From the NCBI RefSeq assembly GCF_024700885.2, contig NZ_CP117016.1: 64,000 nt of DNA, one strand, 5' to 3'. Positions 36,501 to 41,684 of the stretch are shown here, in pieces (position 1 is the first letter of the stretch; every line of letters begins with the position of its first letter). Source of the DNA: Escherichia coli. GTDB taxonomy: Bacteria; Pseudomonadota; Gammaproteobacteria; Enterobacterales; Enterobacteriaceae. Made by a program: the position numbers.

Positions 36501-39500
36501 GCCATTCTCGGGCGCAACGGCGCGGGTAAATCAACGCTACTGCAAATGCTCGCCGGAATGCGTATCGCACAGCAGGGGCAGGTGCTGCTGGATAACATCA
36601 GCATCGGGCAGCTTGATCCGGCGGATCTGCGCCGCGACATGGGGCTGCTGAGCCAGACCGGGCGACTGTTCTTCGGCTCGCTGCGGGAAAACCTGACGAT
36701 GGGGATGCCGGAAGCCAGCGATGAAGATGTCGAACGCGCGTTAACCCTCAGCGGGGCGCTGCCCTTTGTGCAGAAGCAGAAAAACGGCCTCAACTACATG
36801 ATTCAGGAAGGGGGATTTGGCCTCTCTGGTGGTCAGCGGCAAACGCTGCTGCTGGCGCGGCTACTCATCTCTCAACCCAATATCGTGCTGCTCGATGAAC
36901 CCAGCGCCTCGCTGGACGAAATGGCGGAAGCGTATTTAATCGAACAACTGAAACAGTGGATTGGGCATCGCACGCTGGTCATCGCCACTCACCGCACGGC
37001 GATGCTGCAACTGGTGGACCGCATTATCGTGATGGATCAGGGGCGGATTGTGATGGATGGCGCGAAAGAGGCCATTTTGCGTGAACAGAGCGAACCCACG
37101 ACGCGACGGGTGGTGTTGCAGGAGAAGAATAAGGGGTCTGCCGCATGAATGGACAACTGCAATACAACCGTGGCCTGACTGAACCCCGCCTGCCGCGTTC
37201 GGCGCTGGCGGTACGCGTTACCGCTGTGATGCTGCTCTGTTTTCTCGGCTGGGCGTGGTACTTCCAGCTTGATGAAGTCACCACCGGCAGCGGCACGGTA
37301 GAACCCTCCGGGCGCGAACAGGTGGTGCAGTCGCTGGAAGGCGGAATTCTGTATCATCTCGACGTCAAGGTTGGCGATATTGTTGAACAGGGCCAGCCGC
37401 TGGCGCAGCTTAACCGCACCAAAACGGAATCCGACGTCCAGGAAGCAATGTCGCGGCTGTACGCGGCGCTGGCAACCTCGGCGCGGCTGCGGGCGGAAGT
37501 GAGTAATAAACCGCTGGTCTTCCCTGACGAACTGAATAAATTCCCCGAACTTATCGAGTCGGAAACGGCGTTGTACAACACTCGCCGCGATGGGCTGAAC
37601 AAAGCCACCACCGGGCTGACGCAGGGGATTAGCCTGGTCAACCGCGAACTGGCGATGACCCAGCCGCTGGTGAAACAGGGGGCGGCGAGCAGCGTCGAAG
37701 TGCTGCGCCTGCAACGCCAGGCCAATGAACTGGAAAACAAACTTAGCGACGTGCGCACGCAATATTACGTTCAGGCGCGCGAAGAGTTAGCGAAAGCCAA
37801 TGCGGAAGTAGAAACCCAGCGTTCGGTGATCCGCGGGCGGGAAGATTCTCTCACCCGGCTCAACTTTACCGCGCCGGTACGTGGCATTGTTCAGGACATT
37901 GACGTCACCACGGTTGGCGGCGTTATTGCCCCCGGTGGTAAACTGATGACCATCGTGCCGCTGGATGAGCAATTGCTGATCGAGGCTAAAATCTCCCCGC
38001 GCGATGTGGCGTTTATCCATCCGGGGCAAAAATCGCTGGTGAAAATAACCGCCTACGATTACTCCATCTACGGCGGCCTGCCGGGGGAAGTGGCGGTGAT
38101 TTCACCGGACACCGTGCAGGATGAAGTGCGGCGCGATGTTTATTACTATCGGGTGTACATTCGCACTTTCAGCAACCATCTGGAAAACAAAAGTAAACAG
38201 CAGTTTCCGATATTTCCCGGCATGGTGGCGACGGTCGATATCCGCACCGGCAAAAAAAGCGTGCTGGATTATCTGTTGAAACCCTTTAATAAAGCACAGG
38301 AGGCGTTGCGCGAACGATGAACATTAGCGATGTAGCAAAAATTACCGGCCTGACCAGCAAAGCCATTCGCTTCTATGAAGAGAAGGGGCTGGTGACGCCG
38401 CCGATGCGCAGCGAAAATGGTTATCGAACCTACACGCAGCAGCATCTCAACGAACTGACCTTACTGCGCCAGGCGCGCCAGGTGGGCTTTAACCTGGAAG
38501 AGAGCGGCGAGCTGGTGAATCTGTTTAACGACCCGCAGCGTCACAGCGCCGATGTAAAACGGCGCACCCTGGAGAAAGTGGCGGAGATCGAGCGACATAT
38601 CGAAGAACTGCAATCCATGCGCAACCAGCTGTTGGCGCTGGCGAATGCCTGCCCTGGCGATGACAGCGCCGACTGCCCGATTATCGAAAATCTCTCCGGC
38701 TGCTGTCATCATCGGGCGGGGTGAAAATCAGTTAATCCCCGTTTGCACCGAAAGAATATGCTGCAAACTTTCTACCATTATGCGCCCCGATTGAAATAAG
38801 CCTTCCTGGATTTCGTTGTTAACATTCACAGCGTGAACCAGGGAGGCTAATAACACCACTTGCAAGAAGGCAAAAATAAACGCACCGATAATCATAATAT
38901 GCGTCAGGGGGATTTTCCTTTGCTCCTTCATTTTAAATAACCCACAAACTGACCTTCCTTCATTAAGGCGACTTTTCCCGTGTGGTGATAAACAATGACG
39001 TTATAAAGACCTGACTGATAAACAGTGGCATCTTTATTGTCTTCATCAATTGCACATAATGAATCATTGAGATAAGCAAAGTTCTTACTGCTCATTCTAA
39101 AGGTCATGCCAAATCCTTTATAAATAGATTTTTTAGCGGCCTGGGCATGTTGTGCGGCTTCTGCATTTTTAAATGCCTGCGCCTCGGATGCACTTAAAAT
39201 AGCCGTCTGACGCTGTTGTTCTGCGAGATAACAGGTGTCATGGCTGACGCCCTGCGCCTGGCAATCTGCGATGCGGGAAGTGGGTGAACTACAGCCAGCC
39301 AGTAATATAACCGCCAGCAGGGAAAACGATTTAATGGAACTATTCATCATTGTTAACCTTAAATAATGTACAAATTAATGAAGAGGTGAAACCCGGCAAG
39401 CTTCCTTGCTCTTATTTATATTGAGGATTGGAATATTAGAAAGAATATCCCACGCCGACACCCGCGCCGAAATCAGATTGCGTATCCGCAGAGACACCGG

Positions 39501-41684
39501 CTTTAATCACGGTATGCGTTCCGGCATTAAAAGATGTTCCGAAAGACACCGCAGATTCACCGTTGAAGGTTCCCGCTCCCGCTGACATCATCATAAAGTC
39601 ACCGGCTTTCACCTGTGGTTGTGAGGCGATAGCGATGGCTGATGCAGTTCCCGCATTGGCTTCTTTACGGTTGTCCTCAACTTCGTTTTTCAGCGAACTG
39701 AAATGGTTATTGAGCGTAGTAATCTGCTGGCTATTATCCGCTACTCGTTTTTGCGTGTTGCTTAACTGCTGATGCGTTTGGGTTACGTCTTGTGTCAGGC
39801 TGTCAATTTGTTCATGCGTTTGCGTTGAGTCTTGCGCCAGACGCTGAATTTGTTCCCCGTACTGCACACTATCGATATGCTGTTGTGTTGCCTGGTTAGT
39901 CGCCAGAGTATCTATTTTTTGTTTTTGTTCTGCTGCAGTACGCGCATTCGCATCATTTTGTGCTCTCAGTCCGGCGTTAACCATCTCTTGATAATGTGCG
40001 TTGGTCTGGCCATCGCCAAGTGCGGAAACCGTTTTTTGCGTCGCGTCGATTTGTTTCTGCTGATCGTCCATTTGTTGCTGCTGGGTGTCCGCTTGTTCCT
40101 GTTGCGCATTGGCAGCAGCAGTCTGTCTGGCGTCAATCATGCTCTGATATCGGGCGGCAGTCTGTACATCACCGGTGGCGGCAACGGTTTTCCGGGTTTC
40201 GTCGAGTTGTTGCTGCTGGTCAGCAATATCGCTGCGGTTCTGTTCGATATTATTTTTGTTTTCTGTCACAGCACCGGAAAGTTTGACGCCGTTCATCAGA
40301 GCGGTGTTGGCGTTAGCGCTGGCATGGTCAGCCGTTGACTGGGCATGTGCGACATCGCCTTTTATGTTGGTGACGTCTGACTGCACTGCGGAGACATCAT
40401 TACGGGTGTCGGCGATGGCGGCTTTATTGGCATCAATATCCGTCTGCGCCACCATAATGGCGTGCTGCGCGTCATCAGCTTTCATTGAAGCCCAGTTGGC
40501 GGCATGTTGTGCGTCCTGAATGGCGGTATCCTGCCCGTTGTCGCGGTCGGTCTGCGCTTGATTGGTTATCGGGTTCAGCGTATTGGTGGGCTGTACGGGA
40601 GAAGCAGCTGTATTTTCCTGAGGTGTCGTTGTCCGGTAATCATGCGCAATCAGATAATTTTGTGCGGCTGCACTATTCCCTGTCCTTTCTAAAAATCGAC
40701 CAATTTTCTGATCAATTTCCGATTGCGACATTCCTGGCTGGATTGCCGTTAATTCTGTCGTTGCCGCCTCAACAGTATCACCCGCAAACGCAGATGGACT
40801 TACGGCGGTAGCAACAACGACAGCCAGTAAAGACAGCTTTACAGTTTTCATGCATTTTTTCTCTTTCAAAGTAAGTCACATATTTGTTTCTATAAGCAAC
40901 GTAAAACGTTGTTATAAGAATTAATCTGCGTTGCAATTTGATCGAAATCTACGCCGCCATTTGTGTGATGTAAAGCGCATTTTTGTCTGGTGTAAGCGTA
41001 AACATCACCAATAAGAAACAAAAAATGTTTCTTATATAAATAAAATAGAAAATCATTTTGTGCTCTTTCAATGTAAAAAAGAGTAAAGACTTGTTTTGAT
41101 AAGCGAAATAAATTCTGTTTCTGGACTAAACGTGAAGCGGTTCCTGATGTGTGCTAAAATGCGTTTCTTTGATAAATCTCAATTTTTAAGAGGTTTACGC
41201 CAGGCAGGAAAATTTAAATGAATGAATTTGAGAAGATTTTTAATGAAATGAATCTGGACCGGGCATTGCTACCGATCCTTTTTCGTTCGAACCGGTCAAC
41301 AGTGTGGAAATATTTGAGTGGTGATAGTACGGCTCCTGCCTCAGCTATGTCACTGATTATGCTGTTGCAGTTAATCCAGAAACGAAACCCCGATCTGTTA
41401 GCCGAATGGTTAACGCTTTCTGATTTCACCATTCCGCCAGAAGTTTACCTGGACCAGCCTGATTACTGGAAAGGGTGGGTGTATACGCAACACAAGGTCA
41501 ATAAAAACGTCCTGGAATATCTAAAAAAACATTATCCGGATGAAGACCAAAAAAACATGAATAAAGGTAGTGACGAGTAATTTGCCAATGCCAGTTAATA
41601 TAGCGGAGGCGGCCTACGATTCGGGCGCAGACTTCCAGGCATGATAAGACGCGCCCGCGCCGCATCAGGCATCAGCGCATAACC

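What the first reader, a model, noticed from the sequence alone, without database searches (positions are those of the whole stretch)
38728..40851. Accessory three-gene module between cueR and ybbJ: short YadA-anchor autotransporter-like protein with Gln-rich coiled-coil, plus lipoprotein and small membrane protein
None of these genes belongs to the K-12 cueR-ybbJ interval as I recall it, and the DNA is AT-rich. The 471-aa protein has a signal peptide, a long Q/A/D-rich coiled-coil with internal repeats and a canonical YadA-like C-terminal beta-anchor ending GVGVGYSF, but no recognisable head domain. The downstream lipoprotein (lipobox LLAGC) and the 67-aa membrane protein are translationally coupled, reminiscent of TAA-plus-helper-lipoprotein pairs such as SadA/SadB, though in a different gene order. 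This may be a minimal surface-display or adhesion module of unknown function.
Basis: partly seen in the sequence, partly recalled or inferred. Interest (0 to 1): 0.7.

Follow-up and report, generated by a model that had tools for sequence, protein, structure and literature searches.

The report
Published "GmrA regulator" is surface autotransporter
This small E. coli gene islet (O-island 29 of O157:H7) encodes a headless trimeric surface fibre with a partner lipoprotein, and it matters because the fibre gene is the one published as the flagellar "transcription factor" GmrA, which its sequence does not support.

Summary
Window 38725-41764 is a 3.0-kb islet inserted where the stop codons of cueR and ybbJ abut in K-12.

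- **Contents:** it holds four genes, not three.
  - A 471-aa trimeric autotransporter (TAA) with a signal peptide, a coiled-coil stalk and a full YadA anchor (Pfam E=1.2e-10), but no head domain.
  - A 140-aa outer-membrane-type lipoprotein.
  - A translationally coupled 67-aa membrane protein.
  - A divergent 120-aa protein whose predicted fold is an XRE-type helix-turn-helix (HTH).
- **Distribution:** the islet is in 1416 of 5426 complete E. coli genomes. It is O-island 29 of O157:H7 (z0638, z0639, z0640; Sakai ECs0546, 0548, 0549).
- **Lipoprotein:** it is unrelated to the two known TAA helpers, SadB and TpgA. Even so, relatives sit directly downstream of headless YadA-anchor genes in about ten other Enterobacterales species, at unrelated sites. 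It also occurs alone in about eight species.

My reading is a TAA operon with a new class of partner lipoprotein. Its physiological role is untested.

The parts
38728..38931 (-). 67-aa small membrane protein. It has a basic N terminus, one hydrophobic helix (about residues 12-33) and a 34-residue C-terminal tail predicted to be periplasmic. It is not annotated in EDL933 or Sakai.
   Evidence: ORF. Its start overlaps the lipoprotein stop (ATGA). It is conserved at 34-42% identity, with the same overlap, in Pseudocitrobacter and at 91% in E. whittamii. It has no family match. The topology is inferred from the positive-inside rule.
38928..39350 (-). 140-aa lipoprotein, the orthologue of z0638 / ECs0546. 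It has the lipobox LLAGC with Ser at +2 (outer-membrane type), a conserved Cys30/Cys40 motif (CxAxGxSxDTCYLAEQNRQ), an Ala/Gln-rich helix at residues 37-64, and an eight-stranded small beta-barrel at residues 75-140.
39351..39435 (-). 85-bp spacer between the autotransporter gene and the lipoprotein gene. It contains a short hairpin (GCAAG-GAAG-CTTGC).
   Evidence: Sequence. The scan called a terminator-like site here only on the opposite strand, and the overall counts were not above chance. Co-transcription is inferred, not shown.
39436..40851 (-). 471-aa trimeric autotransporter (type Vc), an allele of z0639 / ECs0548 / Ec042-0536, published as 'gmrA'. Parts: signal peptide residues 1-24 (40780-40851); conserved 48-residue N-terminal cap, residues 25-72 (40636-40779); Pro/Thr linker, residues 73-100; coiled-coil stalk, residues 101-411 (39619-40551); YadA anchor, residues 412-471 (39439-39618).
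   Evidence: Identity with gmrA rests on exact primer mapping.
40852..41217 (.). 366-bp AT-rich (31.7% GC) intergenic region between the divergent genes. It presumably holds both promoters.
   Evidence: Promoter-like hexamers lie at 41071-41042 and 40974-40946 on the minus strand, but the counts were not above the shuffled expectation.
41218..41580 (+). 120-aa all-helical protein with an N-terminal XRE/Cro-type helix-turn-helix, the orthologue of z0640 / ECs0549. It is probably the local regulator.
41581..41764 (.). REP/BIME repeat cluster at the right edge of the islet, just before the ybbJ stop codon.
   Evidence: Rfam naRNA4 (RF02564) at 41638-41715, 71.9 bits against a gathering score of 59.5. 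This stretch caused the 131,843 matching places.

Best explanation
The islet is a small accessory operon for a surface fibre.

Shown from sequence:
- The 471-aa protein is a Sec-exported type Vc (trimeric) autotransporter.
- Its last 60 residues would supply four strands to a 12-stranded trimeric outer-membrane barrel.
- About 310 residues of Ala/Gln/Asp-rich coiled coil would form a stalk of roughly 45 nm.
- The stalk is tipped by a 48-residue cap rather than a YadA-type head.
- Stalk length varies between strains through gain and loss of whole cassettes (338, 415, 436, 471 and 594 aa).

Inferred:
- The downstream lipoprotein is sorted to the outer membrane. It acts in the periplasm as a dedicated partner of the autotransporter's anchor, either stabilising it or helping its assembly. 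This is analogous to SadB or TpgA, but the protein is unrelated to either.
- The 67-aa inner-membrane protein is made in step with the lipoprotein, because the two genes overlap.
- The divergent 120-aa XRE-type HTH protein controls the AT-rich intergenic promoters.
- The published motility effect of deleting this gene ('gmrA') is therefore more likely an indirect consequence of an envelope protein than direct binding to the fliA promoter.
For: Autotransporter identity:
- Full-length YadA_anchor match and similarity to the solved anchors of AtaA and Hia.
- A signal peptide conserved in all alleles, with an in-frame stop before the ATG in O157.
- Heptad periodicity in the stalk.
- 15 of 17 upstream neighbours of lipoprotein homologues carry YadA_anchor, and none carries a head or neck family.

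Modular stalk: (allele alignment), including a 123-residue module duplicated in L003.

Partnership with the lipoprotein:
- In a one-genome-per-species scan, 10 of 33 loci have a YadA-anchor gene just upstream on the same strand. Among those with the full-length barrel domain it is 9 of 17. The gap is below 350 bp in all but one, Pantoea conspicua, where it is 1.9 kb.
- These loci are at unrelated sites, and the autotransporters are only 17-37% identical to the window's.
- A plasmid of Enterobacter sp. 638 carries the same pairing. Its lipoprotein shares only the N-terminal module.

Other points:
- Outer-membrane sorting: no homologue has Asp at +2.
- Regulator.
- Against a transcription-factor role: pI 4.7 and net charge about -16 for the mature O157 protein. 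The only 'DNA-related' matches are far-sub-threshold hits to the coiled coils of SMC, Rad50 and DndD (22 bits against a cut-off of 567).
Against: - Surface localisation, trimerisation, and contact between the lipoprotein and the anchor are untested here.
- Full-length lipoprotein homologues stand alone, with no YadA-anchor gene within 6 kb, in about eight species, including Klebsiella grimontii, Raoultella, Erwinia, Pluralibacter and Serratia silvae. The lipoprotein therefore cannot be strictly dependent on an autotransporter.
- The 67-aa gene is conserved only in Escherichia and Pseudocitrobacter.
- Promoter and terminator scans gave nothing above chance, so the operon structure is inferred from spacing and overlap.
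Confidence: 0.6

Rival explanations
1. [not shown]
For: Yang et al. 2018 (PMC5826968):
- Deleting gmrA lowers motility, flagella number and fliA, fliC and motA transcripts, and a plasmid copy restores them.
- K-12 carrying gmrA becomes more motile.
- A gel shift was seen with N-terminally His6-tagged protein, and ChIP-qPCR enrichment with a 3xFLAG fusion.
- The phenotype was seen in eight strains.
- The model is repeated in reviews up to 2024.
Against: - The primers map the gene exactly onto the autotransporter ORF.
- That ORF has a cleavable signal peptide and a full YadA anchor.
- It has no DNA-binding family in Pfam or NCBIfam, only sub-threshold coiled-coil matches to SMC, Rad50 and DndD. 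I suspect, but cannot verify, that these are what the CDD 'DNA-binding domain' call was.
- The protein is strongly acidic (pI 4.7).
- By inference, an N-terminal His tag would mask the signal peptide, and a C-terminal FLAG tag (if the fusion is C-terminal, as its name suggests) would mask the terminal aromatic residue needed for barrel assembly. Both assays may therefore have used mislocalised protein.
- The islet's protein with a DNA-binding fold is z0640.
Confidence: 0.07
2. The lipoprotein is an independent periplasmic or outer-membrane factor, for example an inhibitor of a host enzyme in the manner of the MliC/PliC lysozyme inhibitors. It merely travels with autotransporter genes on small islets and does not act on them.
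For: - About eight species carry the full-length lipoprotein with no autotransporter within 6 kb.
- In Klebsiella grimontii it lies next to a gene I recognise by eye as ecotin, a periplasmic protease inhibitor (my own knowledge). The Raoultella locus appears to have the same layout, but I did not read its ecotin-like ORF.
- Both halves of the protein occur separately in other small lipoproteins.
Against: - By eye, the MliC signature motifs as I recall them are not present in the same order. This was not formally tested.
- Tight same-strand adjacency to YadA-anchor genes persists across hosts, chromosomal sites and one plasmid, while the passengers diverge to 17-37% identity. Hitch-hiking alone explains this poorly.
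Confidence: 0.2
3. The fibre is not a host-cell adhesin. It serves bacterium-to-bacterium or protective functions such as autoaggregation, biofilm formation, serum resistance, immunoglobulin binding or shielding of phage receptors, as reported for other short Escherichia autotransporters (Saa, Eib).
For: - Deleting OI-29 left HeLa and Caco-2 adherence unchanged.
- The protein has no head domain and is mostly stalk.
- Stalk length varies between lineages, which is compatible with diversifying selection at the surface.
- Ogura et al. 2007 listed ECs0548 as a 'Saa-like protein'.
- Phage-encoded adhesin families share the anchor-proximal 200 residues.
Against: - No assay exists for any of these functions.
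- Similarity to plasmid and phage autotransporters is limited to the anchor-proximal region, at most the last ~175 residues.
- The N-terminal part of the passenger is found only in Escherichia.
- This reading refines the best explanation rather than excluding it.
Confidence: 0.3

Closest known systems
[not shown]
   Same: It is the same locus and the same gene family. The window carries a longer allele (471 aa against 338 aa, 72-73% identity). The flanks, the lipoprotein, the 67-aa gene and the 120-aa gene are nearly identical.
   Different: The published function, a transcription factor binding the fliA promoter, is not supported by any sequence feature. The window allele has an extra ~120-residue stalk module. 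The 67-aa gene was not recognised in those studies.
SadA/SadB of Salmonella: a trimeric autotransporter with a helper lipoprotein (Grin et al. 2014, PMC3953254)
   Same: An autotransporter gene sits next to a lipoprotein gene in one transcriptional direction. The lipoprotein has an Ala-rich helix followed by a beta domain, which could in principle trimerise.
   Different: - A profile of the lipoprotein family finds no SadB chain in the PDB, even at E<=10.
- The gene lies downstream of the autotransporter, not upstream.
- Ser at +2 predicts the outer membrane, whereas SadB is described as an inner-membrane lipoprotein (abstract of PMC11054257).
AtaA/TpgA of Acinetobacter sp. Tol 5: an autotransporter with a periplasmic, peptidoglycan-binding partner (PMC12523085; survey in bioRxiv 10.64898/2026.01.22.700529)
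   Same: The partner gene lies immediately downstream of the autotransporter gene, and the presumed site of action is the periplasmic face of the anchor.
   Different: TpgA homologues carry a BamE domain, with or without an OmpA domain. This lipoprotein matches no Pfam family even at E<=10, and its barrel fold is different. The 2026 survey required a YadA head, so headless autotransporters like this one were outside it.
TraV, the outer-membrane lipoprotein of F-type conjugation systems (TIGR02747)
   Same: The N-terminal 60 residues (lipobox, two spaced cysteines, DTC...EQ motif, helix) give repeated weak matches of 15-21 bits across the family.
   Different: All matches are below the curated cut-off of 44.75 bits. 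Only the N-terminal third of TraV is covered. There are no conjugation genes nearby.
XRE/Cro-type small regulators (Aca1, Aca2, HigA, MqsA C-terminal domain)
   Different: It has no significant sequence-family match, it carries an extra ~55-residue helical C-terminal half, and no target DNA is known.

Membership tests
Trimeric autotransporter (type Vc secretion) | C-terminal YadA-like membrane anchor domain (four beta strands per chain) | tested here: met
   Pfam PF03895, E=1.2e-10, model positions 1-60 of 60, residues 412-471. phmmer matches to the anchors of AtaA (E=1.4e-6) and Hia.
Trimeric autotransporter (type Vc secretion) | N-terminal Sec signal peptide | tested here: met
   Read from the sequence: MKTVK, a 13-residue hydrophobic core, then AFA|GD. 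It is conserved in all alleles and in distant relatives. An in-frame stop precedes the ATG in O157. No dedicated predictor was available.
Trimeric autotransporter (type Vc secretion) | Coiled-coil stalk leading into the anchor | tested here: met
   A 3.5-residue hydrophobic period is the strongest signal in residues 101-220 and 321-411. The V-x-x-N-S-x-x-I pattern before the anchor is typical of these stalks (my own knowledge). Sub-threshold coiled-coil family hits appear.
Trimeric autotransporter (type Vc secretion) | Trimer formation and outer-membrane localisation | not testable with these tools
   This needs fractionation, heat-modifiability gels and surface labelling.
YadA/UpaG-type adhesins with a head | YadA_head, neck or other known head domains | tested here: not met
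   No head or stalk family appears in the window protein or in any of 17 related proteins. The N-terminal 195 residues have relatives only in Escherichia.
SadB-type helper lipoprotein | Sequence or fold similarity to SadB | tested here: not met
   [not shown]
SadB-type helper lipoprotein | Gene upstream of the autotransporter; inner-membrane lipoprotein | tested here: not met
   The gene is downstream. The +2 residue is Ser or Thr in all homologues, never Asp.
TpgA-type periplasmic partner | BamE (SmpA/OmlA) domain, with or without an OmpA-like peptidoglycan-binding domain | tested here: not met
   No Pfam family matches even at E<=10. The predicted fold is a helix plus an eight-stranded barrel.
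TpgA-type periplasmic partner | Gene directly downstream of the autotransporter gene, with conserved synteny | tested here: met
   Same-strand adjacency in E. coli and about ten other species.
Transcription factor (the published GmrA assignment) | A recognisable DNA-binding domain in a cytoplasmic protein | tested here: not met
   The O157 allele has only YadA_anchor in Pfam. In NCBIfam it has only coiled-coil noise from SMC and similar families, at 22 bits against a cut-off of 567. It has a signal peptide and pI 4.7.
MliC/PliC lysozyme inhibitors | Eight-stranded barrel carrying the family's conserved inhibitory loops | tested here: inconclusive
   [not shown]
XRE-family HTH regulator (the 120-aa protein) | Five-helix HTH fold | tested here: met
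   [not shown]

The most novel reading that the evidence does not exclude
The z0638-type lipoprotein defines a third class of dedicated partner for trimeric autotransporters, after SadB and TpgA. This class has not been recognised before and is specific to short, headless, coiled-coil autotransporters of Enterobacterales. If so, the widely cited 'horizontally acquired transcription factor GmrA' is in fact a surface fibre, and its effect on flagellar genes is relayed indirectly through the cell envelope.
Probability: 0.35. Interest if true: 0.7.

Novelty: new variant of a known kind. Interest (0 to 1): 0.6.

Why it matters
- **A likely misassignment in the literature.** A gene entered as a laterally acquired transcriptional activator of flagella, and repeated in reviews up to 2024, has the full sequence signature of an outer-membrane autotransporter. 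If the motility phenotype is real, it points to unexplored signalling from a surface fibre to flagellar expression. If it is not, regulatory maps of O157:H7 need correcting.
- **A candidate third helper class.** Only two accessory proteins for trimeric autotransporters are known. The 2026 global survey could not see this one, because it required a head domain. A conserved lipoprotein next to headless autotransporters is a testable new candidate.
- **Prevalence.** The islet is in about a quarter of complete E. coli genomes. According to Yang et al. 2018 these include O157:H7, O145:H28, enteroaggregative, uropathogenic and neonatal meningitis lineages.

Tried and rejected
- **SadB or TpgA homology of the lipoprotein:** rejected.
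- **Phage or defence origin:** PADLOC gave only coiled-coil noise (LmuB). PHROGs matched only the anchor-proximal part of the autotransporter. There is no integrase and there are no direct repeats at the islet borders.
- **'Saa-like' label:** tblastn against plasmids found no match beyond the last ~125 residues, apart from two chromosome-sized E. coli records (4.9 Mb) held in the plasmid collection. I did not check whether the Saa plasmid pO113 is in that collection.
- **Promoter and terminator scans:** counts were no higher than in shuffled sequence, so I did not use them.
- **Rfam:** only a REP-derived naRNA4 match at the islet edge.
- **Large proteins with several matches to the lipoprotein profile (P0248 and others):** the one I read, P0248, has Cys-rich repeats that share a short 'DGSY..VVYC' pattern. 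I set these hits aside as spurious. P0248 was too long for the Pfam tool.
- **XAC1346 'secretion chaperone' family:** 17 bits against a cut-off of 120, and no paper was found. Dropped.
- **Co-divergence of anchor and lipoprotein as a test of contact:** not attempted, because physical linkage alone would produce it.
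Full report
**1. What is in the sequence**

On the minus strand of the window lie three closely packed ORFs: 39436-40851 (471 aa), 38928-39350 (140 aa) and 38728-38931 (67 aa). The last two overlap by ATGA.

It is separated from the 471-aa gene by a 366-bp region of 31.7% GC. A REP cluster that matches Rfam naRNA4 closes the segment before ybbJ.

The window is E. coli chromosome, 100% identical over 4 kb to many complete genomes. 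In K-12 the stop codons of cueR and ybbJ touch. The 3,040 bases from 38725 to 41764 are therefore an insertion or deletion polymorphism at that point. The last ~10 codons of ybbJ also differ. I saw no integrase and no flanking direct repeats.

**2. The 471-aa protein is a trimeric autotransporter**

- Residues 412-471 match Pfam YadA_anchor over the whole model (E=1.2e-10). They also match the crystallised anchors of AtaA and Hia.
- The N terminus is a standard signal peptide (MKTVKLSLLAVVVATAVSPSAFA|GD).
- PGAP annotates the identical DNA from an internal Met, giving 431 aa with no signal peptide. The O157:H7 allele has an in-frame TGA right before the upstream ATG. All alleles, including distant ones, keep a signal peptide. 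The 471-aa reading is therefore the right one.
- Residues 101-411 are rich in Ala, Gln, Asp and Thr, with heptad periodicity and one 35-residue internal repeat.
- Neither this protein nor any of 16 relatives matches a head or neck family.
- What sits at the tip is a 48-residue segment conserved among most E. coli alleles. It is missing in the E. whittamii allele. Relatives of the N-terminal 195 residues are found only in Escherichia.
- Alleles differ by whole cassettes: 338 aa (O157:H7 and many others), 415, 436, 471 and 594 aa. The longest carries a 123-residue module twice.

**3. The lipoprotein, the small membrane protein and the regulator**

*Lipoprotein.*
- It has the lipobox LLAGC and an invariant Cys20. 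The +2 residue is Ser or Thr, never Asp, in all homologues. By the E. coli +2 rule (my own knowledge) this predicts outer-membrane sorting.
- It also has two further conserved cysteines in the motif CxAxGxSxDTCYLAEQNRQ.
- AlphaFold2 with 18 sequences gives a helix at residues 37-64 and an eight-stranded barrel at residues 75-140. The 10-residue blocks from residue 81 onward score pLDDT 84-91.
- It matches no Pfam family at any threshold.
- The N-terminal 60 residues repeatedly give weak, sub-threshold matches to the N terminus of TraV.
- The family is small: 147 clusters among 1.84 billion representative proteins. The two halves also occur separately.

*67-aa protein.* It has a basic N terminus, one hydrophobic helix and a 34-residue tail. 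It is conserved, with the same ATGA overlap, only in Escherichia and Pseudocitrobacter.

**4. Distribution and synteny**

The islet occurs in 1416 of 5426 complete E. coli genomes. It is always chromosomal, with one copy in most (median one matching place per genome). In the seven E. coli loci I examined it lies between cueR and ybbJ.

Starting from the lipoprotein, a scan of one genome per species returned 33 loci. A YadA-anchor ORF lies on the same strand upstream in 10 of them. Among the 17 with the full-length barrel domain it does so in 9. The gap is below 350 bp in all but one, Pantoea conspicua, where it is 1.9 kb.
- The species are E. whittamii, a Pseudocitrobacter sp., Phytobacter massiliensis, an unnamed Enterobacteriaceae genome, Rahnella rivi, Yersinia aleksiciae, Enterobacter asburiae, E. 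chuandaensis, Pantoea conspicua and Lelliottia.
- Pseudocitrobacter faecalis and plasmid pENTE01 of Enterobacter sp. 638 show the same pairing.
- The chromosomal sites differ, and these autotransporters are only 17-37% identical to the window's.
- A gene with a few copies per genome would not land there by chance.

The link is not obligatory. About eight species carry the full-length lipoprotein with no anchor gene within 6 kb.

Homologues of the 120-aa protein sit divergently upstream in Pseudocitrobacter, Rahnella, Yersinia aleksiciae and Serratia silvae. The last of these has no autotransporter.

**5. What the literature says, and the conflict**

- Ogura et al. 2007 listed Sakai ECs0548 as a 'Saa-like protein' in S-loop 43.
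- Chaudhuri et al. 2010 listed Ec042-0536 as a trimeric autotransporter for which 'the literature provides no clues'.

Their lambda-Red primer arms map without mismatch onto the Sakai sequence. The gmrA arms abut the start and stop of ECs_0548, the autotransporter. The z0638 arms flank the lipoprotein gene. The z0640 arms flank the 120-aa gene. The published transcription factor is therefore the autotransporter.

The O157 allele has no DNA-binding family. It has only sub-threshold matches to the coiled coils of SMC, Rad50 and DndD. I suspect, but cannot verify, that these are what the cited CDD 'DNA-binding domain' was. The mature protein has pI 4.7 and a net charge near -16.

By inference, the N-terminal His tag used for the gel shift would block export. 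The 3xFLAG fusion used for ChIP, if C-terminal as its name suggests, would mask the terminal Phe needed for barrel assembly.

Reviews up to 2024 repeat the transcription-factor assignment. I found no paper in the searchable library that notes the discrepancy.

The same study reports that deleting the islet does not change HeLa or Caco-2 adherence, and that z0638 and z0640 do not affect motility.

**6. Mechanism**

*Shown by sequence:* a Sec-exported protein with a type Vc anchor and a coiled-coil passenger; an adjacent outer-membrane-type lipoprotein; a translationally coupled small membrane protein; and a divergent protein with an HTH fold.

*Inferred:* the passenger forms a trimeric stalk of about 45 nm, or about 27 nm in O157. 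The lipoprotein acts at the periplasmic face of the anchor. The HTH protein regulates the AT-rich intergenic promoters. The motility phenotype is indirect.

The independent-lipoprotein reading (an inhibitor-like barrel that also occurs alone) remains possible. The transcription-factor reading is very unlikely.

**7. Comparison with known systems**

This is a member of the trimeric autotransporter class, and every sequence-testable defining feature is met. It works like the SadA/SadB and AtaA/TpgA pairs only in outline, because the lipoprotein fails every homology test against both.

A 2026 survey states that SadB and TpgA are the only described helpers. It screened only autotransporters with a YadA head, so this family was outside its reach.

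**8. Verdict**

The locus itself is known, as OI-29. Two things appear to be new. First, its 'transcription factor' is an autotransporter. Second, its lipoprotein belongs to a small family that recurs next to headless autotransporters across Enterobacterales.

Interest is 0.6. Novelty is rated as a new variant of a known kind.

Noticed in passing
window 16335-38320: A complete type I secretion locus lies just upstream. It has a TolC-like outer-membrane gene (16335-17690), one uninterrupted 5,727-aa ORF (17799-34982), an ABC transporter (34986-37148) and a membrane-fusion protein (37145-38320). In Sakai the giant gene is split into ECs0541 and ECs0542. In EAEC 042 it is reported as frameshifted. 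Here it appears intact.
   Followed up: partly
window 38317-38320; L006 996-1093; L046: The cueR start codon overlaps the stop of the membrane-fusion gene (ATGA), so cueR looks translationally coupled to the secretion operon in this strain. In a strain without the secretion locus, a 98-bp annotated remnant of that gene's 3' end still precedes cueR. This suggests that lineages like it lost the locus by deletion.
   Followed up: no
window 40731-40851: RefSeq (PGAP) annotates this allele of the autotransporter from an internal Met, giving 431 aa (WP_020240786.1). This removes the signal peptide. The shorter O157 allele is annotated from the correct start.
   Followed up: yes
window 41581-41764: A REP/BIME cluster at the islet edge matches Rfam naRNA4 (RF02564) above the gathering score on the minus strand (71.9 bits). 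It explains the more than 130,000 matching places in the first genome search.
   Followed up: partly
window 41765-41800, compared with L046 2902-2940: The last ~10 codons of ybbJ differ between this strain and K-12, so the polymorphism extends a little into ybbJ.
   Followed up: no
L007 1801-9936 (Pseudocitrobacter faecalis): This locus has two tandem YadA-anchor genes (633 and 608 aa), followed by the lipoprotein and the small membrane gene. A large serine recombinase gene lies 1.3 kb further on, which hints that this version sits on a mobile element.
   Followed up: no
L026, L028, L030, L031, L033-L039, L042: These loci carry 63-69-aa lipoproteins that consist only of the N-terminal Cys-motif module. 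They occur in Buttiauxella, Atlantibacter, Silvania, Aeromonas and Pseudomonas, with no autotransporter nearby. The four I scanned (L026, L030, L031, L033) each give a weak match to the N terminus of TraV.
   Followed up: partly
L004 182-1405 (E. coli O145:H28): In this strain an extra 407-aa hypothetical gene lies between cueR and the 67-aa gene, so the left edge of the islet is itself variable.
   Followed up: no
L010 and L012 (Pseudocitrobacter sp.): The same four-gene cassette is inserted between fetA and qmcA rather than between ybbJ and cueR. This is one gene pair away from its position in E. coli.
   Followed up: no
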